Shown one piece after another: positions 1-35,604 of a stretch of DNA of 64,000 nucleotides. The stretch spans positions 64,001-128,000 of the IMG/VR virus record IMGVR_UViG_3300037231_000119. One strand, given 5' to 3'. The notes below the pieces were generated by a model. The model was given only the letters and a program-made list of their open reading frames with translations, searched no databases and was not told the origin of the DNA. A program made the translations under genes and the position numbers. Positions within the stretch are counted from its first letter, which is position 1. Every line of letters starts with the position of its first letter. This stretch comes from a virus.

Positions 1-377
1 GGAGCCCAGGAAATCTGAATACGAGCTGGCCCACAATCACAACCACAGTTACAATTCCATGTCTCATAGCCTGGAGGCAAAGCTTCGGGGAATCCGGCTA
101 CGAAACACGGCGCGTACGGATAGCCAGGAAAGCCACAATTGAAGGGGAAGATAGGGAAGTTGACTACATAGCCAAGAGGGGTAAAGTAGTTGGTCACATA
201 GGTAGAGGTCAAGAAAGGGATCATGAAGGGCTCTACCTGAGTAAGGCCATTAGCAATAGCGGCGTTGATTAGGACGGTAGCAGAAGCCACAAAAGTAGCC
301 TCAGCCGTGACCATAAGAGAGGCAACGGTGGCTTGGGAGGCGGTAAGGGCTGCGGAGGCGGTAGGGAGGGTGGGCAT
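1..377 (-). CDS. Hypothetical late protein, runs off the left edge (MPTLPTASAALTASQATV...CNCGCDCGPARIQISWA)
   Basis: Open frame read by hand from ATG at 377 to the window edge; ATG is 5 nt downstream of a CCAATCTTA motif. Not in the supplied ORF track. Confidence 0.7.
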   Translation of the reverse strand, partial: MPTLPTASAALTASQATVASLMVTAEATFVASATVLINAAIANGLTQVEPFMIPFLTSTYVTNYFTPLGYVVNFPIFPFNCGFPGYPYAPCFVAGFPEALPPGYETWNCNCGCDCGPARIQISWA

Positions 378-391: not shown

Positions 392-1486
392 CTATTGGGA
401 AAGAAAGTCGAGGCAGCGCTTAATGCAGGATTGCTTGTCTAAATCCCAGTCTTCTTCTTTGATGTGGAGGATTTTGATGCCAATTGAAAGGAAATAGAGG
501 TCCTTATCTTCGTGGTAGGTTATAATAGCGGAGTCGGACCAAAGATTTTCGTTTTTGGCCTTTCTCATATATTCAAAACTATGATAATAGCTGCCATCGT
601 ATTCTATGCTTTTACCCAGTTCAGGGACATATATGTCCAGCTCCAAGTACCTCTTTTTATTATTGGGATCATTATAAAATCTCTTTTTTATCGTACCCGG
701 ATAAATTTCAGAAACTAAAGCAAAAATCTCTCTTTCGGCAATGGATGAACCTTTCAATGTACATTTAGGACACCTTCTTCCATGCCCCTTAAAATTATAG
801 AAAGTTGTTTCGTACGGATGATTTTTGGGACAAATAAGAAGAATTTTACCTTGGGGATCATATTCTTCCGACTTTAACAAATATCCCTCTTTTTCAACAA
901 ACTCTTTTATGGATGCCAGAGAATGGGGGCGATTATGAGCGCAGTGTTGACATCTCGCTTTTGCAGACAAAAATCCATTCATCGTAAGAGTTGTTTCGTG
1001 GCCAGCCGAACAAAAAACATTAAGTTTTTGATGGGCGTTTTTGTAATTTGTAGTAATTAGCCTATAACCTTCTTTACGTAAAATGTTAGAGATATCGTCA
1101 ATAGTATATCTTTTAATGCCTCGACATTCGTTACACCCAGAGCCATGGCCGATATAATTATCTAGAGAGGTAGACACTGCGTGCCCGTTTCTACATACCA
1201 TATTAAGTTTTTGTTTCATATTACTGTATGAGATATCAGATAGCGTATACCCATCTCGTTTTAGAATGGCCCTAACACTTTCGACTGTATAGGAAGCCTT
1301 ATCGAGGCAAGTAGGGCATCGACTTTTCTGACTTGTGAAGCAATTAAGTGTAACAAACCAAGGATGTCCCTTTGGACATACGACCTCCAACTTCTTCCCA
1401 CTCCTCACATATATCTTAGATATGAGAGTGTACCCCTCCATCTCAAATATATCTTTTACTGTTTCGTAGCTAAATTTTACCGTCAT
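392..1486 (-). CDS. Free-standing homing-endonuclease-like protein: four CxxGH...CxxC zinc-ribbon repeats plus C-terminal Vsr/DUF559-like PD-(D/E)XK nuclease
   Basis: Repeats CPKGH..RCPTC, CRNGH..GCNEC, CSAGH..RCQHC, CPKNH..RCPKC; nuclease motif LELDIYVPELGKSIEYDGSYYH. Confidence 0.75.
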   Translation of the reverse strand: MTVKFSYETVKDIFEMEGYTLISKIYVRSGKKLEVVCPKGHPWFVTLNCFTSQKSRCPTCLDKASYTVESVRAILKRDGYTLSDISYSNMKQKLNMVCRNGHAVSTSLDNYIGHGSGCNECRGIKRYTIDDISNILRKEGYRLITTNYKNAHQKLNVFCSAGHETTLTMNGFLSAKARCQHCAHNRPHSLASIKEFVEKEGYLLKSEEYDPQGKILLICPKNHPYETTFYNFKGHGRRCPKCTLKGSSIAEREIFALVSEIYPGTIKKRFYNDPNNKKRYLELDIYVPELGKSIEYDGSYYHSFEYMRKAKNENLWSDSAIITYHEDKDLYFLSIGIKILHIKEEDWDLDKQSCIKRCLDFLSQ

Positions 1487-1587: not shown

Positions 1588-2103
1588 TTAAGGAAGCGAA
1601 ACCGCCCCTGCTTCCGCATCGTTAGGCGAACTTTCGTCGGTGAGGGCTAATGCTTTGTATGTGATATTTATTTTAGATGTAGCTCGTGACTGGAAATTAT
1701 TGCTATTGGTATCAGGCAATGCACCGATAAGGGTAGCCATTGGAGGACCGGTAGGATTCTCACGATCAGCAACAGTAATCGTAACTGGACCTAGTCCAAG
1801 TAGTTGATTTAATGTAGGAAATTGACCCAAAGCTTTGACGCCAAATCCATATACACGGAATCCGGTGCATTGGACAGTAACCGCATTATAAGCGGTAAGT
1901 GTTATCTCATCAGCGGAATAGCGGCCCAAGAGATGAATATCTTCGCTCGAGATCGATTCACTAATACTGCACGAATCGAAAATACCGATTACGACTGGAG
2001 ATCCACCAGCGCCCTGAATACTTACGACGGATCTACCACCCGTAATAACTTTGGATGCAGCTGGACTAATTCCGCCTCTGCCACTATCATCGATAATTGC
2101 CAT
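1588..2103 (-). CDS. Tail tube protein
   Basis: 171 aa beta-rich protein directly after the sheath gene, good SD (GGGAGA), followed by a terminator. Confidence 0.75.
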   Translation of the reverse strand: MAIIDDSGRGGISPAASKVITGGRSVVSIQGAGGSPVVIGIFDSCSISESISSEDIHLLGRYSADEITLTAYNAVTVQCTGFRVYGFGVKALGQFPTLNQLLGLGPVTITVADRENPTGPPMATLIGALPDTNSNNFQSRATSKINITYKALALTDESSPNDAEAGAVSLP

Positions 2104-2126: not shown

Positions 2127-4877
2127 TTAGCTTGCTGACTGTTGAACCGCACTGAGAGCCAAATTAATTGCTACAAAGTATATGCTCGTAGTCAATTTTG
2201 CTTCAACATTCACAGTCATAGTGGGTGCCGAAAGTGTAATGCTGGCATTTTTATATCCAAGAGGTGCATCATTCGACGTAGTCACCATCTTAAGCTTCTT
2301 GTAGAAGTCGAATCTCTGTTGCAAGAAGCTCAGAGCAGAAGCTGCAGTGACATCGGCCACAGATCTTCCAACAATTGCACTCTGAAAACTTTGCGCGAGG
2401 TCAAGAGCTAAAATGTCAGATAGATATACGGCCTGAATCGAATTATAAACGAAGCTCGAATTTAGGCCAAATGAGGTCTGATCGGATACCCACAGGATTC
2501 CACTTGTATTTTGAGTTAGAACCAAAAGGCCCGCAATGATCGCCTCACTCACATCCGCTGGATCACCAGAGTCATATCCAACTGGGTCCTGGAACGAAAC
2601 GATATTGGCCAAGTGGTTACAAATAGATTTGTAGAAACCGCCGCACTGTGTGCCAGCCGCTACTGCCGCCGCATACCAAGGCAAGAACAACTGATTCACA
2701 CCAGCCGAATTTACCTGAGTCACTTGCTGACACGTCAGAGAGCAACGATAGCTTGCCAAGCTCTGAGCTTGTGCCCTAGCATTAGCAAACGTGTCATTGA
2801 TGGACAGAATCGCCATACGATTATGTTTCAGGGTAGGGGTTGAGAACTGAATGCAATGTGACTTAAGAAGCTCATTGATGGCGTCGATCGTATAAGTCGA
2901 ACTTGGATCCGTATTACCGGCCGTAATATCTTTACTCGCATCCTGAGAGAACAAAGGAACAATGATATTGACCTGGATACCGCCCATTTGAGCGATCGCA
3001 TTTACAATGTCATTCGCAGACGTTCCACCCAAAGCGCCACCAGTCAAGAACACCATAGAGCCTGGTACTGGAAGACCGGAAGTAGCCGTAGGAGTAAAAC
3101 CAACCGCCGTAGAAGTATTCAATTGATTCTGGAATGTAAACAGGGAATTCTTCACACGTCCTGGTTGATCTCCGTCCGTAGAAGCAATCCCGATAGCCGT
3201 AACATGATCCAGAGAAGAGGTTGGATTCGAAGTAGCAGAGCTTCCAACCGTTGCCGTATACCCTGGCTGCGTGTTAATGAATGCCGCCAACTGGCCAACC
3301 GTAGTATACTGAGAAAGAACGATTGAGAGATTAGCGCCAGTTCCACCCGTGACGGTCGTTGTCAGCATGGTTGAGTTAATGGTCATCGTTCCGGTCGTTC
3401 CAGCGTACCCAACACTCAAGGCAATAGCTGGAGCAATATTGAACGTCTCATTAATCTGCGCAGTCGTATTGATAATCGAGACTTCAACCGCTGGCTCTTC
3501 GCTAGAAGTAATAAGTCCAGCCGTCATACCAAGAGCGGCCAAATCACCAGGAGTAGAATCGATCAACTCAAAGCTTTGTCCAAATCCACTCGCGTATGGT
3601 GTACCTTCAGCAGCCATCGTGAACACCAGAGTATTCATCGCAGACCCAGCAGATGCCGTAATACCAGCAGGGAGAAGAAGATTCAGCTCCGTAATCAACT
3701 CAGCAATATTGGAATGCGCAGCTCCGACGATAGTTCCAGGTGGAAAGCCAGTGACCGAATTGGTAGGGCTTGATCCCACGTTTCCAGTTACAACCGAAGA
3801 CCCAGTATTGGTAACCCCGGAAGAACCCAAAAGACCGAATGAACCAGCATAGTTAAGAAGAGGGGAATTCTGAGCATTGACAACCGTTGCGGCACTGAGA
3901 GTAACTGCGCCCGTAAGAGCAATCAGGGAACCGTTAACAGTTCCACCCAAAGTATCTGTAATGCTATCTTCCGCAATGACGTTACCAGCGAAGGTTCCGC
4001 TAAAGCCAGAATTGATCGTAGCCGAAGATCCAACTACCCAGTAGATGTTAGCAGCTGTCGCACCACCGGTCAGCGTCATGGTCGGGATACCACCAGAACC
4101 GGTAACCAGAGTGCTAGAGGTCTTGATAACATACACCCCAGCGCCATTGAAGGTTAGGGTTCCAGCTCCAGAAGCTGCCAAGCTAGCTGCGCCCGTGCTA
4201 TAAACACCGGGAGTCAACGTTTGGCCGTCGAGAGTCGCAGAGATCGGAGTAGCGGTCATACCGGTCAGGCTAGTATAGGCAGACATGGCGGCAGATTGAC
4301 CAGCGGCCGATTCAGTAGGAGTAACAGGGCTAGAAGATCCGGAACTGAGTGTAATTACGTGAGATGCTCCACCGTTCACACGAATAGAGAACGTATCGCC
4401 ATCCAGAGCGGTACCAAAAGCAGGGACCGTATTCCCAGTAACTTGTGGAGAAACTTCGTTACTGATGGAGGTAACCGTGTAGTTGAAGAGATTTCCAGCT
4501 ACACCGAAGTTAAGCGCCGTGAGAGTTCCATAACCAGGAACGGAAGCGGTCGCCTGTGTACCCTCGTTGGTTTTGAGGATATAGATGGAAGTAGCCGTTC
4601 CGGAAATGTCTGGATCGTTACTAGGAGCCGAAAGAGCAGCAAAGGCGTCAACGATTGGACCCGAGCCGTAAATAGCTCTTACTTGGTTGTAAGCGCTAGG
4701 CCCGAAGAAGTTGTTAGCCAACGTAACTTCAGAGTAGTTAGGGCCTTGAGCAGCTTCACCCATGATAAGAACAACCCCTGAACTCGCAAGTCCGGAAGCT
4801 GTTGAAATTACAGTGGTATTTACGTAGGCGCCAGGGATTGGGGTAGAAATCCAGGGAGTATTTAAAAATTGTGCCAT
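2127..4877 (-). CDS. Contractile tail sheath protein with an inserted DUF3494 (ice-binding-like) domain
   Basis: Sheath N-terminus IPGAY..VLIMGEAAQGP..YGSGPIVDA; C-terminal sheath region LTGGALG, IIVPL, GLLVL, DQTS; upstream of the tube gene. Confidence 0.9.
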   Translation of the reverse strand: MAQFLNTPWISTPIPGAYVNTTVISTASGLASSGVVLIMGEAAQGPNYSEVTLANNFFGPSAYNQVRAIYGSGPIVDAFAALSAPSNDPDISGTATSIYILKTNEGTQATASVPGYGTLTALNFGVAGNLFNYTVTSISNEVSPQVTGNTVPAFGTALDGDTFSIRVNGGASHVITLSSGSSSPVTPTESAAGQSAAMSAYTSLTGMTATPISATLDGQTLTPGVYSTGAASLAASGAGTLTFNGAGVYVIKTSSTLVTGSGGIPTMTLTGGATAANIYWVVGSSATINSGFSGTFAGNVIAEDSITDTLGGTVNGSLIALTGAVTLSAATVVNAQNSPLLNYAGSFGLLGSSGVTNTGSSVVTGNVGSSPTNSVTGFPPGTIVGAAHSNIAELITELNLLLPAGITASAGSAMNTLVFTMAAEGTPYASGFGQSFELIDSTPGDLAALGMTAGLITSSEEPAVEVSIINTTAQINETFNIAPAIALSVGYAGTTGTMTINSTMLTTTVTGGTGANLSIVLSQYTTVGQLAAFINTQPGYTATVGSSATSNPTSSLDHVTAIGIASTDGDQPGRVKNSLFTFQNQLNTSTAVGFTPTATSGLPVPGSMVFLTGGALGGTSANDIVNAIAQMGGIQVNIIVPLFSQDASKDITAGNTDPSSTYTIDAINELLKSHCIQFSTPTLKHNRMAILSINDTFANARAQAQSLASYRCSLTCQQVTQVNSAGVNQLFLPWYAAAVAAGTQCGGFYKSICNHLANIVSFQDPVGYDSGDPADVSEAIIAGLLVLTQNTSGILWVSDQTSFGLNSSFVYNSIQAVYLSDILALDLAQSFQSAIVGRSVADVTAASALSFLQQRFDFYKKLKMVTTSNDAPLGYKNASITLSAPTMTVNVEAKLTTSIYFVAINLALSAVQQSAS
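3711..4326 (-). other. Circularly permuted DUF3494 ice-binding-like beta-solenoid within the sheath (aa ~185-388)
   Basis: SAY..L, LDGQTLTPGVY, LTFNG, LTGGATAANIYWVVGSSATI, FAGNVIA..SIT, GSLIALTGAVTL, then the normally N-terminal segment AGSFGLLGSSGVTNTG..VTGNVGSSP..SVTGFPPG. Confidence 0.85.
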
Positions 4878-4890
4878 ATACTATCTCCTA

Positions 4891-5202
4891 TTACTTAACT
4901 TTTTTGAGTCCAAAATTGAACAAACCGTCGTGAAATTGTTCTGGACTATCCATTCCAATAGCCTTAAGATGCAACCAAAGGGCATGCTCAAGATACTTAG
5001 ATTTTCCGTACTTTGCCCTATTGCCGACCCAGAATTTTCTAAATTCTTCTCTTTTTTGAGCATCGGTGAGAGGCTTAACTTGCGGCTTATGTAGAGAAGC
5101 TCTGTAAGCTTTAGCTTGTTCCAAGGTCATAGCAATAGCTTCAGCCGCCGTTTGGGGCTTAGGTTCCACTTTAACTTGCTTGGTTTTTTGGGGTTTAGCC
5201 AT
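4891..5202 (-). CDS. Hypothetical protein (morphogenesis operon)
   Basis: 103 aa ORF packed between head-protein genes and the sheath gene. Confidence 0.7.
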   Translation of the reverse strand: MAKPQKTKQVKVEPKPQTAAEAIAMTLEQAKAYRASLHKPQVKPLTDAQKREEFRKFWVGNRAKYGKSKYLEHALWLHLKAIGMDSPEQFHDGLFNFGLKKVK

Positions 5203-5207
5203 TTTTG

Positions 5208-5780
5208 TTATCCAGGAAGCTTCGGTTTTGGTTGGGCCTTGATTCCTTCAAGACGTTCTTTATGGGCATCTTTGGAGCCTTCTTTTGCGATCATTTCGCC
5301 AATACCATCGCCAGATTTTCCGTAACCAACAGCGCGTTTTGCACGATCACCGGCAATAGGATTTAGAGGATCCTCGCCTTTATCCATTTCCTTAGCCTTA
5401 GACCCCTTTTTCATTTCCATTTTGCCCATAAATTTAGCCAGCTTATAAGAGCCCTTTTCATGATGCTTAGGATCTTGATTCGTAGCTTCATGCTGCTGAA
5501 CGTCTTGTTCAACCTTTTCACCAAGATCGGCATCGGCTTTAGCATCTGGGTTCTGTTCAGACATTCCCATTTTCTTCATAGGATCTTCAGATTTGCCCAT
5601 CTTAGCTTTAATGGCGCCGTCGATCTTATCAGCAGACTTTTCAGAATAGCCTTCTTTTTTGAGCTTAGAATGAATTTTAGCCCAATCGCCTTTAGCCAAC
5701 GTAGAGTTTTTATACATCTCTTCCGCTTTCTTCAAAACGGCGATGGCGGCTTCGGCTGGTGTAAATTTTTTATCAGACAT
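5208..5780 (-). CDS. Putative internal head protein with multiple K|S/A/G motifs
   Basis: LKKAE, LAKGD, MGKSE, MDKGE; late motif at 5801-5809 and SD GGAG. Confidence 0.65.
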   Translation of the reverse strand: MSDKKFTPAEAAIAVLKKAEEMYKNSTLAKGDWAKIHSKLKKEGYSEKSADKIDGAIKAKMGKSEDPMKKMGMSEQNPDAKADADLGEKVEQDVQQHEATNQDPKHHEKGSYKLAKFMGKMEMKKGSKAKEMDKGEDPLNPIAGDRAKRAVGYGKSGDGIGEMIAKEGSKDAHKERLEGIKAQPKPKLPG

Positions 5781-5800
5781 AGGTAGTCTCCATATAGGTC

Positions 5801-5809
5801 TAAGATTGG
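5801..5809 (-). promoter_or_regulatory. Putative late promoter CCAATCTTA
   Basis: Exact motif ~20 nt upstream of the ATG at 5780. Confidence 0.7.
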
Positions 5810-5816
5810 ATTAAAG

Positions 5817-6137
5817 CTATTTCTTAGCCCCTTGTTTCGATAAGAAGCTATGGAGCGCCTGTATACTCGGCTTCTTAAACTCTTGATTTTGTTCACTTTT
5901 ATAGAATTGGCTCGGTTTGTCAGTAGCTTGGCCTGGTTTTTTAGCCTTGGCGGTCTTTACGACTGCTTGAGCGCCAACCCTGGTAGGGCTAGCCGTATTG
6001 GACTGAGTGGGCGATATTACACCAGCTACAGGGGTCAGTTTTGTAGGGGTAAGTCCAGCCATAGCAGCTTTGGCCAGAACTTCAGTCTTTTGAAGGACTA
6101 GGATTGCAACTTGTTGAGGGGTAAAGATTTTGGCCAT
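5817..6137 (-). CDS. Putative internal head protein; N-terminus similar to 5208..5780
   Basis: FTPQQVAILVLQKTE vs FTPAEAAIAVLKKAE; FYKSE; motif variant CCAATCTTT at 6145-6153. Confidence 0.65.
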   Translation of the reverse strand: MAKIFTPQQVAILVLQKTEVLAKAAMAGLTPTKLTPVAGVISPTQSNTASPTRVGAQAVVKTAKAKKPGQATDKPSQFYKSEQNQEFKKPSIQALHSFLSKQGAKK

Positions 6138-6154
6138 ATAGGGTAAAGATTGGA

Positions 6155-7144
6155 CTAATCTTCGTCAGCGTAAGCCAGATCTTGAAGCGTGGACCAATTA
6201 ACGGTCGAGAGGTCTTCTTGGCTATCCGTGATATTGGACAGGATCTTTAGGCCGCCCGTAAACCCATCAGCATTGCCGAGAGATAAGTTCTCAATGTATC
6301 TATGTGGTTGTTCAATCCACCTTGATTCGGTTTGCAAGCTTAGATTTACGTCCCTGCTCCAGATCACTTGACCCGAATCACTATAATCTGGGTTCGGATA
6401 CATTCCTGTAGACTTAAGAACACTTTCAGTGCCTCCTCCCGCCTCCAAAAGTTTCTGTCTATATCTAAGTAGTACGTATACGGTTATGGTATGTAGCCAG
6501 AGTAGAGTCTGTTGGTCCATCGCATGGCAGGATATTTTATAATTCTCTTGCATGAAGGTATGGCCGACTCGAGCTTGATAGGTCTGGAAGTGGGGGATGA
6601 TTCCATAGAGTGCTGGAGTGAAAGTGAGGCCAGGAAGGAGATTAACTTGATTAGCAGTAGTAACTGACTGGATGACGAAACCTGTTCCAGTAGCCGGATC
6701 TACCAATACCATTTCGGGAGCAACAGCATTCAGGTTCACATCCGCATTGAACGAGAAGACACCAGTAACTGAATTATAGGTTCCTCCACTAATAGGTTTT
6801 AAAACAAAAGGGATCGGCTTATTGATGTCATTGGGGTAGAGTGTTACCTTTTCCGTACTTAGGTCGGCCATATGACGCATGTCCATTTTTTCGTCATTTG
6901 ATCCGAGTTCAACAACTATGGCGGGGAATTCAACCTTATCCTCCCTAAGAGACATAAGGATATTTATTCTGTTATTGGTAATCCATTGCTTACATGAGGA
7001 TATTTGACTCCCATAAAGCCTTCTCATGTACTCATTTGACACCGTATCGCCTAAAATATCGTCGATTAACCATAGATTTTTGGTTATATCCTCTAAACCC
7101 AATATTAATGCAGCTTTTACGCGAAGATCGCCAAGGTAGACCAT
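6155..7144 (-). CDS. Putative tail-completion/neck protein
   Basis: Position upstream of the sheath; FPAIVVEL and YKISCHA..LLWLHT..YVL pattern resembles tail-terminator-like proteins. Confidence 0.5.
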   Translation of the reverse strand: MVYLGDLRVKAALILGLEDITKNLWLIDDILGDTVSNEYMRRLYGSQISSCKQWITNNRINILMSLREDKVEFPAIVVELGSNDEKMDMRHMADLSTEKVTLYPNDINKPIPFVLKPISGGTYNSVTGVFSFNADVNLNAVAPEMVLVDPATGTGFVIQSVTTANQVNLLPGLTFTPALYGIIPHFQTYQARVGHTFMQENYKISCHAMDQQTLLWLHTITVYVLLRYRQKLLEAGGGTESVLKSTGMYPNPDYSDSGQVIWSRDVNLSLQTESRWIEQPHRYIENLSLGNADGFTGGLKILSNITDSQEDLSTVNWSTLQDLAYADED

Positions 7145-7148
7145 TTAC

Positions 7149-7964
7149 TTACCCCTTATATTTCTGCAAGATCGCTGGAAGGACACTATTATTCCATTCA
7201 TTTTGGGCCCACTCTGCGGCATCTGGGAAAAATCCCTTAGCGTTTTGAGCCGGATATTGCCACTTCCCATCATCGCCTTCTATGACAGTTCTGAAGGTAG
7301 TCATTACTTTCTTAGCGTTACCATTCTTATTCAAAACCTGATATATGTGGAGCCTTGCGAGTTGCTCGGTATTTCCACGCCCCGGTATCTTACTTGGAAT
7401 GTCAAAAACATGTAAGGGGAGAGGATGTCCATTAGGCCCCATTTTACTTATTCTCGGGCTCCCATTAGAATCCTTTTCAATTCCGCTCCACGAAAGCTTT
7501 TGACCTTTTAGAAAACCTTTGATACTTCCAATAAGCTCCTCATTCTTAGCAAGAGTCTTAATATTCAAACTGTCGGATTCTTTACCTTGTGGCATTGGAA
7601 TAATTTTGTAATGCTTGCCTTTATTAGGGCCATTCTTAACAGTCTCAGAATCTTTCAAGAGACCGTATTCTCCAGGCTTACCCTTCATATCCCACGGCTT
7701 ACCTTCTTCGATAGGAACTGCCGGTTCATTTAACGTGATCTCCCAAAGAAAGTCGCTGATTTGTACGGCTTGGCTTAGACTAGCTAGATATTTTTTTGCA
7801 ATCTGAGTATTTAGCTTTTGTCCCACCTCTTTTACCATGTTGGCGTGGGTAGCTTCCGCAAGCCCCTTAATACCTTTTTGAACATCCTTCGCGATTTCTT
7901 TTGCAAAGTTATTCAGGTATTGGGTTAAAGAGGAGATGTCTAGGTTGACTTTGATATCGCTCAT
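7149..7964 (-). CDS. Putative neck/head-tail protein
   Basis: IEEG..WDMK..LL, IIP, TFRTV..KWQYP pattern and synteny. Confidence 0.5.
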   Translation of the reverse strand: MSDIKVNLDISSLTQYLNNFAKEIAKDVQKGIKGLAEATHANMVKEVGQKLNTQIAKKYLASLSQAVQISDFLWEITLNEPAVPIEEGKPWDMKGKPGEYGLLKDSETVKNGPNKGKHYKIIPMPQGKESDSLNIKTLAKNEELIGSIKGFLKGQKLSWSGIEKDSNGSPRISKMGPNGHPLPLHVFDIPSKIPGRGNTEQLARLHIYQVLNKNGNAKKVMTTFRTVIEGDDGKWQYPAQNAKGFFPDAAEWAQNEWNNSVLPAILQKYKG

Positions 7965-9151
7965 AGAATACCCATCATCTTCAATTTAGGCTCATTCCAA
8001 AGCTCAGCATTAGGAAATTGTGTAAGAAACCAATCCCATTTAATTTGGGAATGAGGTCTCATATACCCCTTAATTTCGACCCAAGTATTAGGCTCTATAA
8101 GAAATAGATCTGGGCGATATGTCTTAGCTGTCCCAGATTTGGTAAAAAGGGGCGTCGTGAATGTTTGGGGTTGCCACAAAAAATCAATCTTTTTGGAATT
8201 AAGGTAATCCACTACTTTGGGTTCGTAACCGGCCTGACAAATAAGTTCCTCCCCAGTTTTCCAGTGTATTTTTAGGGTAGTATTTTGTAGTTTTTTAGCG
8301 TGCGTTAATGCATATGAGGGATCCTGAGATAGATGTTCTACCCCATACCTCTCCAGATTAGTTTTCCTTATCTTATCTAGTTTTCTTTTGGGATGACCTA
8401 TAAATTCCGCTCTAGGGAGTGACCAGAATTCACCGTGGTCCTTGTCAACGAAACGTGCCGTTTCATTCAGCCCCGTGTAGGTAGTTTCGTCTAAAATAAA
8501 TTCGTCCCCGAACTTCTTTAATTTTAATCTTACCTCCTCAATATTCAATTTCTTACCCTCATTTGCCCTATCGGGATGCCCATGGCCATCCATAACTCTA
8601 GCTGGGGTAGAAATCCATTCTCCGTAATCTACATCCATAAATGAACATTCGCTACGAACTTTCGTATGAGTAGAATCTATTATAGAGACAGTATTGCCAT
8701 GTTTCTCAAAAATGATTTTTTTGATATTTCTCAAGGGGGTTTTTGTTCTGTCATACCCTCTTTGAGGATGACCTCTCCCCCTCAAAACACCAATAACTGT
8801 CGCGGGCCATTCCCCATAGTCGCTATCCACAAAAATAGCCTTCTTGTTTACATTTACATAAGATGTTCGCACAATACGTACCGTATCACCATGTACGCCC
8901 TGAATGCGCTTCTCGATATCATCCACAGAAAGTCTTTTCCCGCTAAACGCATACCTTTTTCTCTTTGGATGGCCCTTGCCGTCCCTATAAAGCGCTGCCG
9001 GAATTGCAGTGAAATTACCAAAAGCCTCATCTATAAAGACAGCGGTAGTTTTTACGTCTACGTAGGAGGATTCTTCCATCCCAATAACGTATGGAAGTCT
9101 TCCCTGGACTCTTTCTAGAACTTCCTTACATGTAAGCTTTTTAATACCCAT
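7961..9151 (-). CDS. Homing-endonuclease-like protein: D..G.F/W...GHP repeats plus PD-(D/E)XK nuclease
   Basis: Four repeats ending GHP; TNLERYGVE motif; YRPDLF..WVEIKG; TTGACA at 9181-9186 upstream. Confidence 0.75.
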   Translation of the reverse strand: MGIKKLTCKEVLERVQGRLPYVIGMEESSYVDVKTTAVFIDEAFGNFTAIPAALYRDGKGHPKRKRYAFSGKRLSVDDIEKRIQGVHGDTVRIVRTSYVNVNKKAIFVDSDYGEWPATVIGVLRGRGHPQRGYDRTKTPLRNIKKIIFEKHGNTVSIIDSTHTKVRSECSFMDVDYGEWISTPARVMDGHGHPDRANEGKKLNIEEVRLKLKKFGDEFILDETTYTGLNETARFVDKDHGEFWSLPRAEFIGHPKRKLDKIRKTNLERYGVEHLSQDPSYALTHAKKLQNTTLKIHWKTGEELICQAGYEPKVVDYLNSKKIDFLWQPQTFTTPLFTKSGTAKTYRPDLFLIEPNTWVEIKGYMRPHSQIKWDWFLTQFPNAELWNEPKLKMMGIL

Positions 9152-9187
9152 ATACTTATAATTTCATATACTTGAATATGTGTCAAG

Positions 9188-9415
9188 TTAATTCTTTGGG
9201 GGTTTTACTGGAGCGCCTGATTGAGGGTCCTTCACTCTGCCTTCCAACATGGAGACGAACCTGATATCTTCTGGATCGTTCGGATTTACCCATTTCATTT
9301 GCGACTTACTTGATAATCCGCCCGGTGGGATAGGGGTTTTTGCAACATGGACAGTAGTATGTTTGGAGGGTAATTTAGCTGCTGAGGGTAGTCCTGCTAC
9401 CCCACCGCTTTTGGG
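9188..9415 (-). other. Probable programmed -1 frameshift (C CCA AAA, 9409-9415) giving a 73-aa C-terminal extension to 9397..11775
   Basis: In-frame X XXY YYZ heptamer; hairpin GGGGTAG-cagga-CTACCCT 5 nt downstream; -1 frame closed by TGA just before the heptamer and open to TAA at 9188-9190. Confidence 0.75.
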
Positions 9416-11775
9416 TCACTCTGACCCTCCGCTTTCGGTCCATCTGGCGCACCGGATTGTGTAGCTTCCGCGACCGCACCCGGATCCTGAGGTGCATCTG
9501 AACTCATCTTAGGCTCGAGACCTAAGAGTTTGCACAGCTCGATCATGGCCTTAAGCATCTGGATCGTGCTTTGGTAAAGTCCGGGACTTTGATCTTTAGC
9601 CTCTTCTAGGAATGCCTTATTTGCCTTAAATCCCTGTAACGTTTGGGATACTTGATCTATAACCTGCGCCCTCTTTTGTTCCTGCGCGTGGTCATCTAAA
9701 CCACCCTGGAGAACTCCAGCCATATCTGGTTCATCCTGGCCATCTTCAGCCATCGGATCTTGTCCCGATTCTTGTCCCAATTCTCCATTTTGTCCCGATT
9801 CCTGAGCCATCTGATCCGCATCGCCCTGTGTACCTTGATAGTCTGGAGAGGCCATACGATCGATCGGACCTTCTTCTCCGCCTTGACTTCCAGGGCAATC
9901 TGGACAGTTACATTCATGGTCGCTATTCTGCATGTCCTTTTCAGCATCTGAAACGTTATTCTTTTGCTTATCGCCAAAGTTTTCGGGGACAGAGGCCCCC
10001 TCTTCCATCTCGTCGCCTTGAGGAAGTTCAGTATTGTCAATCTTTTTAGCTTCAGCCTCAGGAGTTTGGTCACCCTCTCCTGGCTTCTGATCCAATAGGT
10101 CTAAAACTTCTTCAGCCGTTTCATGTCCTTGTAGATTGGGATCTTCTTGGCCAGTTTGATCTGGCTGCTCTTCGATAGCGTCCCCATACATCTCTTGGCA
10201 CTGCGGACAGTTGTCTGGTTGCTCGGCAGACATATCTTGGACACCCAAAGCGGTCGCATCATGTTTTGGGCAATTCGGGCAGTTACAAATATGGTCTACG
10301 TCTTGTCCTTCGGGAGTCCCAGCTTGAGCTTCTCCAACGGTTTCGGATTCACAATAAGGGCAACCATCTACGCCGCCAGCCTCATCGGGAGTATCTTGGC
10401 AGTATGGGCAGTCATCCTCTTCCGAACTTTCCTGACAATATGGACAATCATCCGTATCTATCCCACCAGTATTTTGCTGGGAAGCATCGTATTCCTTACA
10501 AGCATCACAATCATGCATCCCAGCCGAACCATCCGCATTTTCTTGAGCATCCAAATCTTGGCAATAAGCACAGTCGTCCGTACGGTTATCTTCTTGATCA
10601 GGATTCTGAAAACCCTTGTCTTCTTTGTCGGCAGCTCCGTTATGGAAGCCCTCTTCATGCTTATGAAGATTATGGGTATGTTCAGACTTATACATCTCGG
10701 GCTTAGACATCCCCGCCTTGGAATCAGATCGTAGTTCTGATGCTGGATCGCTGTGTTGGTACGCAGCTCGACTATGTTGGTCAGCTATTTTAGAATGGAT
10801 ATCTCTATGTGCGGGATCCTTAGCTCTTTCTTTGCTACCGAACGCTCCTTGTTTTCCTTGATGAAAACGCCCCAGATCATTGTGAATTTTGGCCGCGTCG
10901 GCATGATCTTGCGGAGTGTATTTTAAAGTATTGGCAAACGCTTCAGATCGAAAATGAACCGGTTTCTTAGATTGGGTATGCCCCACAATATCGGAATCCT
11001 TGGGATGAACTGGTGCCGCATCCGAATCTGATTTATGAAGACCGCATGTATGTTCATACTTTACCATAGGCGCTGTAGTAGGTGCTGGGACTACGGTTAC
11101 CACGTGCCTCATTATGGCGCCATGTTTCTGATCTCTTTTATCCGCAGCACTATGTAAGCCCTTTTTACTTCCCACCGTTCCTTTATAGTGAAGAGTGCCG
11201 GTAGTGGGGCTATGAGAAGCTAAATGATATTTTTCGCCAGGCTTTAGATCTGGGGCGCCATAGAGACCGTGTTCACCTTCAGCTTTATGTAAATCGCACT
11301 TCATATTTTCGCTCTTTTCCAGATAAGCATCCGCAAGCTTCATCTCTTCTTGATTGGCAGTTTTAGCCTTAACTTTTTCGCGCATTTTATCAATGCCCTT
11401 TTCTACTTTAGGTCCATACCAAACCGTCTTATTCTTACCTGTAGCTTTGGCGTAGAGGAGACTTCTACCCGCTTCAGACAAGTCCTTACCAATACCAACT
11501 GAAATATTTAAGTCGGTGGCCTCGTAGTACTTACTTCTTAGCTCTTCCACATCTTTAGCGGCTTCAAACGGGATGCGAAAACTCCCCTCATCTCCACCAC
11601 CAGAAATTCTTTTACCACCACGCTCTGATACCCACTGATTAACGATCTCGTGACCCAAATCGATCTTGGCCGAGATATTGTGGAGAGCCTTCTCATCATT
11701 TGCAATGATGGCCTTACCGCACTGGCGACCAGCACCGTCCGCATCATAAGTAAGTCTGAGCATGGGCTTACTCAT
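9397..11775 (-). CDS. Putative head polyprotein: N-terminal mCpol (minimal CRISPR polymerase)-like domain, His-rich modules, acidic CxxC-repeat region
   Basis: YDADGAG...GGKRISGGGDEG...ISVGIG...A..SLLYAKATGKN; LEKSE, LHKAE, LHKSD, MYKSE; eight CxxC units. Confidence 0.7.
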   Translation of the reverse strand: MSKPMLRLTYDADGAGRQCGKAIIANDEKALHNISAKIDLGHEIVNQWVSERGGKRISGGGDEGSFRIPFEAAKDVEELRSKYYEATDLNISVGIGKDLSEAGRSLLYAKATGKNKTVWYGPKVEKGIDKMREKVKAKTANQEEMKLADAYLEKSENMKCDLHKAEGEHGLYGAPDLKPGEKYHLASHSPTTGTLHYKGTVGSKKGLHSAADKRDQKHGAIMRHVVTVVPAPTTAPMVKYEHTCGLHKSDSDAAPVHPKDSDIVGHTQSKKPVHFRSEAFANTLKYTPQDHADAAKIHNDLGRFHQGKQGAFGSKERAKDPAHRDIHSKIADQHSRAAYQHSDPASELRSDSKAGMSKPEMYKSEHTHNLHKHEEGFHNGAADKEDKGFQNPDQEDNRTDDCAYCQDLDAQENADGSAGMHDCDACKEYDASQQNTGGIDTDDCPYCQESSEEDDCPYCQDTPDEAGGVDGCPYCESETVGEAQAGTPEGQDVDHICNCPNCPKHDATALGVQDMSAEQPDNCPQCQEMYGDAIEEQPDQTGQEDPNLQGHETAEEVLDLLDQKPGEGDQTPEAEAKKIDNTELPQGDEMEEGASVPENFGDKQKNNVSDAEKDMQNSDHECNCPDCPGSQGGEEGPIDRMASPDYQGTQGDADQMAQESGQNGELGQESGQDPMAEDGQDEPDMAGVLQGGLDDHAQEQKRAQVIDQVSQTLQGFKANKAFLEEAKDQSPGLYQSTIQMLKAMIELCKLLGLEPKMSSDAPQDPGAVAEATQSGAPDGPKAEGQSDPKAVG

Positions 11776-32163: not shown

Positions 32164-32769
32164 TCAGTTTTTAAGAAGCTGTTCAAAATTCAACGTTTTC
32201 GTTATGGATTCGGAGGTCTTCTGTTCTTCCTCTGCCATCGATTTTAAAAGATCGGCGACGATCTGTTCCTGCATATTGAGAGCTTTTTTGCCAGATTCAC
32301 TTAGGTTCTTAGTAGCCGTTTTGCCCAAGGTGAACTTAGGTTGCATGGCCTTTTGAATTGACTTTAAAGTCATTTCAGATACTTTATGGTCATGGGCCTT
32401 TTTGAGGTTAGACTGGAAGGATTTAATACCGTCCAGGGACTTTTTGAGGTTCATGTATTCCAGAGAGCCGGTTTCGGTCTTACCAAGCATGGATTCGAGT
32501 TGTGAGATGTGGGAGTCCAATTCTGATCCATTTGGAGACTCTTGTCCTGGCATTTGACCTTCTTGGGAAGGATCCGCATTAGGGTCTTGTCCGGGTTGCC
32601 CTGCCATAGCGGCTTGCTGTGCCTGTGCGTCAGCCTGTTGTTGCTGAGCCTGTTGAACTTGTGCCGATTGGAGGCCATTTTCGTAACCCAATCTAAATGA
32701 AACGTCCAAACAGTCCTGAAAACGAACTTTCAAATCTTGGTATTTTAACTTCCAGTCCTGATTCTTCAT
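32164..32769 (-). CDS. Putative head-assembly protein (Gln-rich)
   Basis: Between portal and MuF; LKKSL, LKKAH, IQKAM, LLKSM motifs. Confidence 0.6.
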   Translation of the reverse strand: MKNQDWKLKYQDLKVRFQDCLDVSFRLGYENGLQSAQVQQAQQQQADAQAQQAAMAGQPGQDPNADPSQEGQMPGQESPNGSELDSHISQLESMLGKTETGSLEYMNLKKSLDGIKSFQSNLKKAHDHKVSEMTLKSIQKAMQPKFTLGKTATKNLSESGKKALNMQEQIVADLLKSMAEEEQKTSESITKTLNFEQLLKN

Positions 32770-32771
32770 AA

Positions 32772-33785
32772 TTATGCTACCTTATCGTTTTCATGCAATG
32801 GATTTGTGATATTTAAAAACTCTAAACATCTCTGTACACAGTCTTCCTTATTTGCTTTCCACTCTTTTTCCGTAATATGTAAAATCTGAATTCCTTTAGT
32901 CTCAAACCACTTATCTTTTAAATCATGGTAATTACGAATATCTTCGTCGGGCCAATGTTTTCTGCCTCTCTTAAGACCTTTGAAAGAGTGATGATAGGTT
33001 CCATCAAATTCAATCCCCTTCATTAGTAGACCACTAAAAATATCTATGTCAAACCCGTGAATATGTGGCCTACCTTCAATTTTAACTTTCATGTCTCTAA
33101 TGGATCGAACATCGGAGCAATACGATTTAACTCTAGATAAAAGTTCTTTCTCAAAAGAGGATATTCCTCCCGATCTCCTCATATGGGAACATAAGAGATC
33201 TAAAAAAATCCGACCTCTTTTGCTAGCGGCTTGATAGGCGCTTGGATCCATTTCTCTAAAATTTCCCCTGCTTGTATATTTAAGTGCTTCCACAGAGATT
33301 TCCTCGTCTAGCCACATTTCTCTGAGAGAGGGCCCCATATGAATAAAAAATTTACTTCCCTTTCTAAGGGCGGCCCTATATTGTCCAGGACTCCCGGCCA
33401 AAAAATCGTAACGGGAGGTGTATTTTTTAGATTCCTCCCCCACTTCTTCGTCCGTATACGGTCTCCACAATACGTCCATATGGCTACAAATATTGCTTAG
33501 GAAGTCTCCACCCTTTCTCCAAGCGGCCTCGTACGCTAAAGAATTGTTTTTCACAAAATCTTTTCTTGAGGCGTATTTAAGCGCCTCAGCGGCCATTTCT
33601 TCTTCCGACCAAGCTATATTGTGGGAGGGGGCCATATGACCACAAATCTTATCCAGAAAAGCTCTTCCCTTTCTTTTCGCAGCATTGTACGCATTGCGAT
33701 TACCCAATCGAAATTCTTGTCTTTTTGAATAAGGATTCGCAGCTACTTGAAGTAGGTCATCGGTCCAAATAAATCTTTTACTCAT
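32772..33785 (-). CDS. Homing-endonuclease-like protein, paralog of 16641..17648 (start revised to 33785)
   Basis: Same helical repeats; KVKIEGRPHIHGFDIDI..GIEFDGTYHHSFKGLKRGRKHWPDED. Confidence 0.75.
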   Translation of the reverse strand: MSKRFIWTDDLLQVAANPYSKRQEFRLGNRNAYNAAKRKGRAFLDKICGHMAPSHNIAWSEEEMAAEALKYASRKDFVKNNSLAYEAAWRKGGDFLSNICSHMDVLWRPYTDEEVGEESKKYTSRYDFLAGSPGQYRAALRKGSKFFIHMGPSLREMWLDEEISVEALKYTSRGNFREMDPSAYQAASKRGRIFLDLLCSHMRRSGGISSFEKELLSRVKSYCSDVRSIRDMKVKIEGRPHIHGFDIDIFSGLLMKGIEFDGTYHHSFKGLKRGRKHWPDEDIRNYHDLKDKWFETKGIQILHITEKEWKANKEDCVQRCLEFLNITNPLHENDKVA

Positions 33786-35604
33786 CTGCTTCCTCATCTT
33801 CACAAAGCATATCATCAACTTCCATGTGAAGCAAGTCCATAGCGTGTGGACGTGGGGCGAACATTGCAAGAAGAGTATTGGGGGCTGTTGTTGCCATAAG
33901 TTGGTAGAATTGCAAGCTAAAAGGATCACGCTTAAACCTGAGCATCGGGTCTACGAAAGCAGCAGGGCTATTAAAAAATCTTCCCTTGACCTGTCCCACA
34001 TCTAAATATTTGTCCCAAATTAACTGGAGTCTTTCTGAAAACTGCACTTCCCCGCCCATTGCAATACCAATAGGATCCTTATCTACATGCTGAAGAACCT
34101 CATCCATCGTCATATGCGTTGGCATATTTTGCTGAAGCTGAGTAGATTCCTGTTCTTTGCTTTCAGCGTCCAGACCAGCAAATTTCAACACGACCATTTT
34201 AGATAAGATCGGATCGATGATCGGAATTAGACGCTGATTAAAGAAAGTTTCGAAATGAAGTAGAAGTGGAACGAGACCTGAATCTCTAGCGGCTTCCATT
34301 TTGAATTCGTTGTTTGACTCACTCAACGTTTGCGAGTTTGAGCCCTTACTTAAATGTCCGTAGCCAGGAATTTCATCAGGGCTCATTTGGAATGTAGCTA
34401 GAATATTTCTCGCCAGTTGGTCGTAAACATAAGTGAAGCTGTCATCTGCGCGATCGTTAGCGAATGACAACCACTTAATGTCTTCCGTGGGAGAAATGCC
34501 CATCAAAGGGGTACGAAAAGAATTCTGAACACCATTAATTGACGCTTGGAATTCCTGTCTGAATTTTTCAAGAGTGGGGGAATCAACATCATCACTCTTA
34601 ATAACTAATGCCCCACGAGTGGCTCGTCCATTTTGAAAATATAGACGCATCCACGTATCAATACTTATGTGTGATGTGATACTCGAAATAGCAGTTTCTA
34701 TTGGTGGAATAGGATATCCATTTTTTTCCACGTCCGTAGACGGGTAGAAAATGTGCATCAGAAGTTCCTTATGGGTAAAATACTGCTTAGCAATTCCCTC
34801 TACCTGCTGGCACCAAGCATACTTGTCTTCTCTGAGCTTGTCGTAGTCAATTTTGATTTTATCGCCAGTGATGCGCTCAAGTTCTTTAATGGCTAAAATA
34901 CGACTATTGGTTCCTGCACTTTCACCATTTCGTACCGTTTTGTAGATGGTTCCAGAGTCAATCGGCCTAAAACGGTTGAATGGGAATTCCCCGTCCTTAT
35001 CTGGATCGGATTCACGATCATAAATGATTTCAGTGCCCATCCAACCAAAAGTGCAGGCGTTCTCTACCTGTGTACTTAGATATTGACTAAGGGTCATCTT
35101 CTGTTGATTTTCAAGACCCTCTGTATGACCGCAGTTCAGCAAAACGGTCTCTAGCCGCTTAATTCTTTCCACTACTTTTTCGTACTGTTCGGTATTAAGA
35201 AGTTTCATGAATTCCGGCAGGATTTCAATCGACATTCCCTTGTCGAATCGGTCAGCACGCTTCTTACCAAATTGACTAAGCTGTCCGCCACGAGTACGGA
35301 GGATGGCAGCAATCAAATGATCCTGGGTTCGGACCATCTTCAAAATACTATCTGGGATCTCATTTCTTTTAGCCTTAACAACGCCCGCATAAGCATCATT
35401 ATAATTCGGGCTCTCCATAAAGGTAAGAGCGGGAGCACGTTCCGTAGCCTTACCGGTCGCGTCATTCAATGCTTTTTGGAGCGGAGCAAGATCCATCTTG
35501 TTCTTATTTAGTTCTTCTAGAGGCCCCATCTTGGACGACTCAGAAAGAGTCAAAGACATCTTGCTGGGCTTAATGGCAGATTTAGGCTTTGTGTCATCAG
35601 TCAT
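33778..35604 (-). CDS. Portal protein
   Basis: RFRPIDSGTI, GYPIPPIE, YFQNGRATRGAL, ILATFQMSPDEI, RDSGLVPLL. Confidence 0.9.
   Translation of the reverse strand: MTDDTKPKSAIKPSKMSLTLSESSKMGPLEELNKNKMDLAPLQKALNDATGKATERAPALTFMESPNYNDAYAGVVKAKRNEIPDSILKMVRTQDHLIAAILRTRGGQLSQFGKKRADRFDKGMSIEILPEFMKLLNTEQYEKVVERIKRLETVLLNCGHTEGLENQQKMTLSQYLSTQVENACTFGWMGTEIIYDRESDPDKDGEFPFNRFRPIDSGTIYKTVRNGESAGTNSRILAIKELERITGDKIKIDYDKLREDKYAWCQQVEGIAKQYFTHKELLMHIFYPSTDVEKNGYPIPPIETAISSITSHISIDTWMRLYFQNGRATRGALVIKSDDVDSPTLEKFRQEFQASINGVQNSFRTPLMGISPTEDIKWLSFANDRADDSFTYVYDQLARNILATFQMSPDEIPGYGHLSKGSNSQTLSESNNEFKMEAARDSGLVPLLLHFETFFNQRLIPIIDPILSKMVVLKFAGLDAESKEQESTQLQQNMPTHMTMDEVLQHVDKDPIGIAMGGEVQFSERLQLIWDKYLDVGQVKGRFFNSPAAFVDPMLRFKRDPFSLQFYQLMATTAPNTLLAMFAPRPHAMDLLHMEVDDMLCEDEEADE

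What the first reader, a model, noticed from the sequence alone, without database searches (positions are those of the whole stretch)
3711..4326. Circularly permuted ice-binding-like (DUF3494) domain displayed on the tail sheath
Seen: ~200 aa of the sheath match DUF3494 motifs (helix ending SAY..L, LDGQTLTPGVY, GGATAANIYWVVGSSAT, FAGNVIA, GSLIALTGAVTL). The segment that normally opens the domain (SF..L..S.VTNTG...V.G.VG.SP...VTGFPPG) comes last. The insert splits a host module (TFSIRVNGG..ITL | NIAELITELN..GITASA). Known: DUF3494 is a discontinuous beta-solenoid whose N-terminal coil stacks against the C-terminal coil, so this permutation would make the solenoid sequential. Sheaths are high-copy polymers. 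Inference: a multivalent ice-binding, ice-recrystallisation-inhibiting or surface-adhesive tail, suggesting a cold or freeze-thaw habitat.
Basis: partly seen in the sequence, partly recalled or inferred. Interest (0 to 1): 0.85.

Follow-up and report, generated by a model that had tools for sequence, protein, structure and literature searches.

The report
Rearranged ice-binding fold on phage sheath
The tail-sheath protein of a 162-kb uncultured soil-type phage carries, in a loop of an outer domain, a complete but re-ordered copy of the fold that cold-adapted microbes use to grip ice; related phages have it or lack it, and whether it binds ice, host slime or something else is untested.

Summary
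Window 2127-4877 (-) encodes a 916-aa contractile-tail sheath. This rests on PHROG 279, an AlphaFold model matching the phage 812 sheath (E 6e-22), and a tube gene next door.

Residues ~182-387 (window 3717-4334) are a full DUF3494/PF11999 domain in circularly permuted order. The long helix and five coils come first (Pfam positions 59-207). The normally N-terminal coil comes last (positions 2-35).

The modelled domain superposes on solved ice-binding proteins (Z 15.6-18.2, rmsd 1.5-2.1 A), but only from their helix onward.

The domain sits exactly in one loop of a flagellin-D2/D3-like outer sheath domain. About 97 of 120 close sheath homologues lack it cleanly, 22 carry it, and its distribution is patchy and mosaic.

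The same phage has canonical-order paralogues (63-69% identical) in its giant baseplate protein and in a 543-aa fibre-like protein. Permuted copies also sit in virion-module proteins of unrelated phages.

Ice binding is neither shown nor excluded. I favour a multivalent surface-adhesion role. I found no paper describing permuted DUF3494 or DUF3494 on a sheath.

This scan has already noted the same feature on other, related phage DNA.

The parts
2127..4877 (-). Tail sheath gene, 916 aa (P0001), stop codon included
   Evidence: phrog_279 tail sheath, E 3.6e-22. It is 40% identical to the annotated sheath of Myxococcus phage Mx1. The full-length AF2 model (pLDDT 87.2) matches the phage 812 sheath (8q1i_O, E 6.1e-22, TMt 0.72) and the phiCD508, P1, T4 and Mu sheaths.
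4473..4877 (-). Conserved N-terminal part of the sheath, aa 1-135
   Evidence: Conserved in all 120 homologues. aa 1-32 have low pLDDT. I read this as the strand-exchange terminus that orders only in the assembled tail; that is an inference.
4335..4472 (-). First half of the host accessory domain, aa 136-181 (strands incl. TFSIRV, HVITL)
   Evidence: Alignment A1. In the 337-aa model this half together with aa 388-455 aligns to the domain at residues ~88-217 of the phage XM1 and E217 sheaths (Z 9.7, 7.8, 7.7) and to flagellin D2/D3 domains.
4263..4334 (-). Start of the insert: entry linker aa 182-186 and long alpha-helix aa 187-205. In canonical DUF3494 this helix follows the first coil.
   Evidence: AF2 helix at aa 187-205, with a pLDDT dip in the linker. 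Pfam profile from position ~59.
3864..4262 (-). Five beta-solenoid coils, aa 206-338, equivalent to canonical coils beta2-beta6
   Evidence: PF11999 positions 61-207, E 1.2e-27. Strands at aa 219-334 with pLDDT 89-98. Superposes on 25 entries of solved ice-binding proteins with Z 15.6-18.2 and rmsd 1.5-2.1 A over ~150 residues.
3717..3863 (-). Displaced first coil (canonical beta1 and cap segment), aa 339-387, now last; exit linker around aa 385-387
   Evidence: PF11999 positions 2-35, E 4.5e-7. Aligns to 6EIO chain 23-81 and 7BWX chain 11-59. pLDDT 85-93.
3513..3716 (-). Second half of the host accessory domain, aa 388-455 (helix IAELITELNLL, strands ITASA, TLVFTM, SFELID)
   Evidence: Contiguous with aa ~181 in insert-less homologues such as P0015. 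AF2 helix at aa 391-401.
2130..3512 (-). Remaining sheath domains and conserved C-terminal core, aa 456-916
   Evidence: phrog_279 covers aa 489-912. 40% identical to the Mx1 sheath over aa 455-916. A family member, P0102, hits PF04984 below its cut-off.
1588..2103 (-). Tail tube gene (171 aa), immediately downstream of the sheath
   Evidence: 45% identical (E 5e-42) to L033:3300-3752. That gene follows the sheath in a relative and carries a PF26461 Phi812_tail_tube hit.

Best explanation
SHOWN.
- The gene is the contractile-tail sheath of a ~162-kb uncultured relative of Myxococcus phage Mx1.
- Residues ~182-387 are a complete DUF3494 (IBP-1 type) beta-solenoid in circularly permuted order: helix, coils beta2-beta6, then coil beta1.
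- The chain is cut at the native beta1-to-helix junction, and the native C- and N-termini are joined by a ~10-residue link.
- The cassette is nested in one loop of a flagellin-D2/D3-like accessory sheath domain, between a beta-strand and an alpha-helix.
- It is optional. Close sheath homologues lack it precisely, and its history is decoupled from that of the sheath core.
- It belongs to a subfamily that also includes the canonical-order copies of this phage's baseplate and fibre-like proteins.

INFERRED.
- Cutting at one peptide bond leaves the cassette's two ends side by side. The solenoid can therefore be plugged into a surface loop without disturbing the sheath lattice.
- The likely origin is an off-register excision from a tandem or duplicated DUF3494 array.
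- On the assembled tail (six subunits per disc, dozens of discs) the result would be hundreds of outward-facing flat solenoid faces.

MOST LIKELY FUNCTION (inferred, about even odds).
- Weak, multivalent adhesion of the tail to a surface polymer, namely host envelope or exopolysaccharide or matrix glycans.
- This would cooperate with the closely related copies in the baseplate.
- It is analogous to the accessory Ig-like domains of other sheaths.
- Ice is a possible alternative ligand.
For: Sheath identity.

Permutation:
- Reversed Pfam and PDB matches.
- An internal control. In the same genome the baseplate and 543-aa copies, 63-69% identical in the helix-plus-coils part, have the first coil in front.
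- The AF2 insert has pLDDT ~85-98. Ordered structural alignment covers only helix-to-C-terminus of the solved proteins (model 50/52..207-211 against, for example, 7BWY 45..203; Z 18.2, rmsd 2.1 A, 150 residues).
- Canonical topology, with the final coil next to the initial coil: PMC7277481, PMC11645318.

Nested insertion and optionality:
- Alignments A1 and A3.
- 22 of 120 sheaths carry it.
- At least 12 gains or losses on a core tree.
- Mosaic identities. P0017 and P0014 are 56-61% identical in the core but 81-82% in the insert. P0012 is 81% in the core but 55% in the insert.
- A single clade of all sheath inserts is not rejected (p-AU 0.56).

Outer location:
- The host domain matches the accessory domains of the XM1 and E217 sheaths and flagellin D2/D3.
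- Additional sheath domains lie away from the tube (PMC9230969; PMC13433997).

Adhesion reading:
- Canonical paralogues sit in the 2616-aa Baseplate_J/gp6-like protein and in a 543-aa protein with a CHB_HEX_C_1 carbohydrate-associated domain.
- The same three-protein set is present in a complete relative.
- Permuted cassettes occur in a 523-aa homologue of the fibre-like protein, and in a 602-aa protein beside Collar and K1-lyase tailspike genes of a P22-portal-type phage.
- There is a sub-threshold hit to PF20597, an ice-binding-like adhesive domain.
- DUF3494 is described as both ice-binding and substrate-binding or adhesive (PMC12337378).
- Evseev et al. propose adhesion for accessory sheath domains.
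Against: - No ligand is identified. Nothing here measures binding.
- I had no model coordinates. I could not verify directly that the displaced coil stacks on the last coil, nor run a permutation-aware superposition.
- All structurally characterised relatives are ice binders. The insert is 58% Thr/Ser/Gly/Ala with only 6 charged residues in 205, which also fits an ice-binding face.
- At least one close homologue probably comes from permafrost-thaw peat.
- The count of gains and losses rests on a FastTree tree.
- The insert could instead make lattice contacts between sheath subunits.
Confidence: 0.55

Rival explanations
1. Ice-binding virion. The permuted DUF3494 faces on the sheath, with the baseplate copies, bind ice. 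They would anchor particles to ice or brine-vein surfaces, or inhibit recrystallisation around the virion in seasonally frozen soil or peat.
For: - Every solved structure that matches is a proven ice-binding protein.
- The composition is Thr/Ser/Ala/Gly-rich, almost uncharged, with T-x-T-like strands.
- The close homologue P0008 occurs in runs SRR7151494-531. These lie beside SRR7151618-621, which are peat metagenomes of Woodcroft 2018.
- PF11999 genes on Arctic viral contigs have been read as cryoprotective (PMC11515562).
Against: - Identity to characterised ice binders is only 23-37%.
- The ice-binding face is not conserved in sequence across the family, so activity cannot be read from sequence.
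- DUF3494 is widespread outside icy habitats and includes substrate-binding members (PMC12337378). One example is a canonical DUF3494-PEP-CTERM protein beside exopolysaccharide genes in Magnetospirillum moscoviense.
- Insert-less and insert-bearing sheaths are close relatives, and I could not tie presence to habitat.
- A position in the baseplate suggests receptor-type binding.
Confidence: 0.2
2. Structural decoration. The solenoid makes contacts between neighbouring sheath subunits or discs. It would stiffen or stabilise the extended tail or tune contraction, with no external ligand.
For: - Accessory sheath domains of phage 812 contact neighbouring subunits (PMC13433997).
- Evseev et al. list virion stability as one possible role.
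- Rigid beta-solenoids are good struts.
Against: - The insert is dispensable in most close relatives. It is swapped independently of the core, which is hard to reconcile with co-adapted lattice contacts.
- The same cassette occurs in non-sheath proteins: fibre-like proteins, baseplate proteins and a podovirus-type structural protein.
Confidence: 0.15
3. Non-functional remnant. The segment would be a decaying fragment of a tandem DUF3494 duplication, or an assembly or annotation artefact that does not fold as a complete domain.
For: Tandem-domain proteins contain the same helix-coils-first-coil stretch across their domain boundary, so a partial excision would look like this.
Against: - The frame is open and the layout conserved in 22 sheath clusters from independent samples at 51-88% identity, with family core residues invariant.
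- No profile positions are missing apart from the short junction.
- The AF2 confidence is high for both segments.
Confidence: 0.03

Closest known systems
Single-domain DUF3494 ice-binding proteins AnpIBP (PDB 7BWX/7BWY, PMC7277481) and EfcIBP (PDB 6EIO)
   Same: - Same Pfam family (PF11999).
- Same triangular beta-solenoid braced by a long helix.
- Best structural matches: Z 18.2 and 17.4, rmsd 2.0-2.1 A, 32-37% identity over ~150 residues.
- Both segments match in sequence.
   Different: - Segment order is circularly permuted, with the first coil last.
- The domain is nested inside another protein's loop instead of being a free secreted protein.
- Ice activity is untested.
- It is carried by a phage virion protein.
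IBPv, the two-domain DUF3494 protein of Flavobacteriaceae isolate 3519-10 (PDB 5UYT), and other tandem DUF3494 proteins (for example P0123, P0127)
   Same: Across the boundary of two tandem domains the sequence reads helix-coils-first coil, as here. The insert aligns continuously over such boundaries (query 7-202 to P0123 72-275). 5UYT scores Z 17.6.
   Different: In tandem proteins each domain is complete in canonical order. Here only one off-register unit exists, and it closes on itself.
Accessory (additional) domains of phage tail sheath proteins (Evseev et al. 2022, PMC9230969; domains III/IV of phage 812 and T4 gp18, PMC13433997)
   Same: [quoted passage not shown]
- Located at the tail surface.
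- More numerous in large phages.
- Proposed roles are adhesion or stability.
   Different: Those described are Ig-like beta-sandwiches or helical domains. The words solenoid and beta-helix do not occur in that survey of 112 sheaths. Here a beta-solenoid is nested inside one such accessory domain.
Canonical DUF3494 domains of the same phage: the 2616-aa Baseplate_J-like protein (genome 3707-11557) and the 543-aa DUF3494 + CHB_HEX_C_1 protein (genome 32519-34150)
   Same: 63-69% identical in the helix-plus-coils part. Same phage, with the same three-protein set in a complete relative. In the domain tree, which was built from the best matches to this insert, they fall in one well-supported clade (99) with the sheath inserts.
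   Different: They keep the canonical order and lie in line within the chain rather than nested in a loop.
PF11999 genes on viral contigs reported as auxiliary metabolic genes (PMC11515562), and DUF3494 proteins of Hyperionvirus (BFVD)
   Same: Virus-encoded DUF3494.
   Different: Those are reported as stand-alone genes read as host cryoprotection. They are not described as virion-displayed, permuted or part of the sheath.

Membership tests
DUF3494 / Pfam PF11999 Ice_binding (IBP-1 fold) | Sequence match to the family profile above the curated cut-off | tested here: met
   99.9 bits against a cut-off of 28.7, E 2e-28. The insert alone scores 116.7 bits.
DUF3494 / Pfam PF11999 Ice_binding (IBP-1 fold) | Triangular beta-solenoid braced by one long alpha-helix | tested here: met
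   AF2 insert with pLDDT ~85-98, helix at aa 187-205 followed by strands. Z 15.6-18.2 and rmsd 1.5-2.1 A to 25 entries of solved family members. This is a predicted structure, not a solved one.
DUF3494 / Pfam PF11999 Ice_binding (IBP-1 fold) | Canonical chain order: first coil, helix, then coils stacking back towards the first coil (PMC7277481, PMC11645318) | tested here: not met
   The order is helix, coils, first coil. Ordered structural alignments cover only the helix-to-C-terminus part of the solved chains. It is therefore a permuted variant, homologous to the family but not of the canonical architecture.
DUF3494 / Pfam PF11999 Ice_binding (IBP-1 fold) | Ice binding (thermal hysteresis, recrystallisation inhibition, ice-plane affinity) | not testable with these tools
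   Requires protein and ice assays. Sequence composition is compatible but not diagnostic.
Contractile tail sheath proteins (phrog_279; PF04984-type) | Sequence or profile similarity to sheath families | tested here: met
   phrog_279 E 3.6e-22 over aa 489-912. 40% identity to the annotated Mx1 sheath. PF04984 is hit only below its cut-off, and only in a homologue.
Contractile tail sheath proteins (phrog_279; PF04984-type) | Sheath fold with a conserved core built from N- and C-terminal parts | tested here: met
   The full-length model matches the phage 812 sheath at E 6.1e-22 (TMt 0.72-0.77) and many other sheaths.
Contractile tail sheath proteins (phrog_279; PF04984-type) | Gene order: sheath immediately followed by the tail tube | tested here: met
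   The downstream 171-aa ORF is 45% identical to a neighbour-of-sheath protein with a PF26461 Phi812_tail_tube hit.
Contractile tail sheath proteins (phrog_279; PF04984-type) | Assembly into a six-start helical sheath with strand exchange between discs | not testable with these tools
   Only a monomer model is available. The termini have low pLDDT, as expected for exchanged strands, but this is not proof.

The most novel reading that the evidence does not exclude
The whole tail of this phage clade is an ice-gripping device. Hundreds of permuted DUF3494 faces on the sheath, plus canonical copies in the baseplate and a fibre-like protein, would give the virion ice affinity or recrystallisation-inhibiting activity. 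This would let particles survive freeze-thaw cycles, or concentrate with their hosts at ice and brine-vein surfaces in peat and permafrost soils. It would be the first structural, virion-borne ice-binding function in any virus.
Probability: 0.2. Interest if true: 0.85.

Novelty: new variant of a known kind. Interest (0 to 1): 0.6.

Why it matters
- It is a clean natural example of circular permutation coupled to domain insertion. A discontinuous solenoid is re-ordered so that both chain ends meet, then used as a plug-in cassette in loops of phage virion proteins. The canonical-order paralogue in the same genome serves as an internal control.
- It adds a beta-solenoid to the accessory sheath domains described in the sheath survey I read (PMC9230969), which lists Ig-like and helical ones.
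- It shows that a phage clade spreads one binding fold over baseplate, fibre-like protein and sheath.
- If the ligand is ice, it would open a new aspect of virus survival in frozen soils and offer a self-assembling, highly multivalent ice-binding scaffold.
- If the ligand is a glycan, it broadens what DUF3494 domains are understood to do outside cold habitats.

Tried and rejected
- A profile of the sheath family against PDB sequences gave no hit. The fold search was needed instead.
- tblastn of the insert against 50,697 GenBank phage records gave no match. Mx1 itself has no PF11999.
- A scan of 185,579 species genomes found no permuted copy. It found only distant canonical ones in a Burkholderiales MAG and Magnetospirillum.
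- Habitat. Paper searches for run and IMG identifiers found only that neighbouring SRR7151xxx runs are Woodcroft 2018 peat. The SRR28494xxx runs that hold insert-less forms could not be placed. I therefore could not test whether insert presence correlates with cold.
- Copy number from tail length. The 1373-aa ORF downstream could not be confirmed as the tape measure, so I give no number beyond the general six per disc.
- I tried to map the mutagenised ice-binding residues of AnpIBP (S153, T156) onto the insert. I could not fix the numbering offset between paper, chain and alignment, so I dropped it.
- The free domain tree split the sheath inserts into several groups among canonical copies. This suggested multiple origins or gene conversion. 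The AU test did not support that reading, so I reject it for now.
- The second ~70-aa cassette has no Pfam match.
- I did not run complex prediction, because no specific protein partner is claimed.
Full report
**What is there**

The finding lies on the minus strand inside one long ORF, window 2127-4877, 916 aa.

Pfam gives a single family, PF11999 Ice_binding, at 99.9 bits (cut-off 28.7, E 2e-28). PHROGs gives phrog_279, tail sheath (E 3.6e-22, aa 489-912).

**The protein is a sheath**

- The only hit among GenBank phages is the annotated tail sheath of Myxococcus phage Mx1. It is 40% identical over the C-terminal half and carries no PF11999.
- A full-length AlphaFold2 model built on 120 homologues has mean pLDDT 87.2.
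- That model matches the phage 812 sheath (E 6.1e-22, TMt 0.72-0.77), then the phiCD508, P1, T4, Mu, pyocin and AFP sheaths.
- The next gene downstream (window 1588-2103, minus strand) is 45% identical to a protein that follows the sheath in a relative and has a Phi812_tail_tube hit.
- The window is part of a 162,446-bp IMG/VR virus record judged complete.

**The permutation**

- Scanned in pieces, aa 186-340 match Pfam positions 61-207 (E 1.2e-27). aa 350-382 match positions 2-35 (E 4.5e-7).
- Against solved structures the same reversal appears. 7BWX chain 62-209 aligns to the first part of the insert and chain 11-59 to the last part. 6EIO chain 105-227 and 23-81 behave likewise.
- The canonical fold has the first coil stacked next to the last coil, in the order beta1-beta6-beta5-beta4-beta3-beta2 (PMC7277481; PMC11645318).
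- Moving beta1 to the end therefore makes the solenoid sequential. The only cut is at the beta1-to-helix junction.
- The same genome supplies a control. Its 2616-aa Baseplate_J/gp6-like protein (two copies) and a 543-aa protein (one copy, followed by CHB_HEX_C_1) carry DUF3494 domains. These are 63-69% identical to the sheath copy in the helix-plus-coils part, but in canonical order.

**Structure**

A model of aa 130-466, built on 26 sequences, has mean pLDDT 86.6, with block means of about 85-98 across the insert.
- It shows host strands, then a long helix (aa 187-205), then solenoid strands (aa 219-334).
- These are followed by the displaced coil (aa 347-384) and then the host helix (aa 391-401).
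- Confidence dips at both junctions.

Foldseek and VIA-align put solved DUF3494 ice-binding proteins first (Z 15.6-18.2, rmsd 1.5-2.1 A, about 150 residues). The aligned range runs only from the helix to the C-terminus of those chains, as expected when an order-dependent aligner meets a permutation.

I had no coordinates. The stacking of the displaced coil on the last coil is therefore inferred from homology and model confidence, not measured.

**Where it is inserted**

Alignment with close homologues shows a clean ~206-aa insertion. It lies between '...VITLSSGSS' (aa ~181) and 'HSNIAELITELN' (aa 388). Insert-less proteins of ~715 aa, such as P0015 (81% identical), read straight through.

The split host module aligns with the accessory domain at residues ~88-217 of the phage XM1 and E217 sheaths, and with flagellin D2/D3 domains (Z 7.7-9.7). 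Homologues also give weak Flagellin_IN hits.

Additional sheath domains lie at the tail surface, away from the tube (PMC9230969; PMC13433997). So 'displayed on the sheath' is supported by homology.

**Distribution and evolution**

- Of the 120 best sheath homologues, 22 carry the insert and one more is a fragment. The rest lack it.
- On a tree of the sheath core, the trait needs at least 12 changes (FastTree).
- Identities are mosaic. P0017 and P0014 are 56-61% identical in the core but 81-82% in the insert. P0012 is 81% in the core but 55% in the insert.
- All sheath inserts can nevertheless form one clade (constrained tree better by 5.15 lnL units, p-AU 0.56).

This fits one origin followed by exchange and loss, although losses and transfers cannot be separated here.

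A search of 1.84 billion representative proteins with the insert gave 7,350 hits. The permuted layout occurred in four settings:
- the sheaths;
- a 523-aa homologue of the fibre-like protein, where the cassette is again nested in a loop, whereas a 441-aa homologue has a canonical copy appended;
- a 602-aa protein with two permuted cassettes, beside Collar and K1-lyase tailspike genes in a P22-portal-type contig;
- two further small proteins, P0129 (context not examined) and P0157, which lies beside an Sf6-type terminase gene.

Tandem proteins align continuously with the insert across their domain boundary. This suggests origin by off-register excision from a duplication.

A complete 166-kb relative has the same three-protein set.

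**Function**

Nothing here measures binding.

For adhesion:
- The copies sit in baseplate and fibre-like proteins, next to a carbohydrate-associated domain.
- The cassette behaves like the swappable accessory domains for which adhesion has been proposed.
- The family includes substrate-binding and adhesive members (PMC12337378).
- There are sub-threshold hits to the adhesive family PF20597.

For ice:
- All solved relatives bind ice.
- The insert is 58% Thr/Ser/Gly/Ala and almost uncharged.
- One close homologue is found in runs adjacent to the Woodcroft 2018 peat metagenomes.

I rate adhesion to a surface polymer about 0.5, ice binding 0.2 and a purely structural role 0.15.

**Novelty**

- No paper in the library combines DUF3494 with circular permutation.
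- The review of non-canonical DUF3494 does not mention permutation or phages.
- The sheath survey lists Ig-like and helical additions only.
- Viral PF11999 genes have been reported only as stand-alone auxiliary genes.
- In BFVD the only clear viral matches are Hyperionvirus proteins.

Earlier notes of this scan describe the same sheath insert, and baseplate copies, in related phages. They also describe permuted DUF3494 on fibre tips of other phages. These notes agree with what I found independently, but they are unchecked AI notes.

Noticed in passing
P0013 and P0063 (alignment A1 columns ~115-185), P0030 (at the DUF3494 site), P0018 (A1 columns ~510-580); not in the window's own sheath: A second mobile module of ~70 aa (FTVTSANATxGAxYxNNGQTFTV...TGDATITFSA) is inserted at three different sites of sheath homologues. 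It has no Pfam match. The outer part of the sheath is a hot spot for cassette insertion.
   Followed up: partly
window 392-1486 (-) and window 7961-9151 (-): Free-standing HNH or homing-endonuclease genes (phrog_559, E 4.5e-53; phrog_681, E 2.9e-9). The first lies just downstream of the tube gene. The contig of the P0008 relative has only ORFs of 120 and 232 aa at that place. Such genes could help drive the mosaicism of the sheath-tube module.
   Followed up: partly
own genome outside the window: G000 3707-11557 (-) = L007:3707-11557, and G000 32519-34150 (-) = L008:12519-14150: A 2616-aa Baseplate_J/gp6-like protein with two canonical DUF3494 domains, and a 543-aa protein with DUF3494 plus CHB_HEX_C_1/Fn3_assoc. 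The phage places this fold in three different proteins: the baseplate and sheath, plus a fibre-like protein whose place in the virion is not shown.
   Followed up: partly
L034:6001-7809 (P0121, JGI 3300077906 contig): A 602-aa protein with two permuted DUF3494 cassettes, each nested in a small module. It lies in a contig with a faint P22_portal hit, a Collar gene and a K1-lyase_C tailspike gene, and is unrelated to the Mx1-like clade.
   Followed up: partly
L041:3848-4861 (Magnetospirillum moscoviense BB-1): A canonical DUF3494 protein with a PEP-CTERM sorting signal, beside sugar-nucleotide and exopolysaccharide genes. It is an example of the family in a bacterium not known to me as cold-adapted; that last point rests on my own knowledge.
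   Followed up: no
window 3678-3716 (-), aa 388-400: The Pfam alignment of the displaced first coil runs on to profile position ~68. It therefore extends into the host helix IAELITELN, where the canonical domain has its own helix. The host helix occupies the sequence position of the canonical helix. This may be coincidence, or it may have helped the cassette to fit.
   Followed up: no
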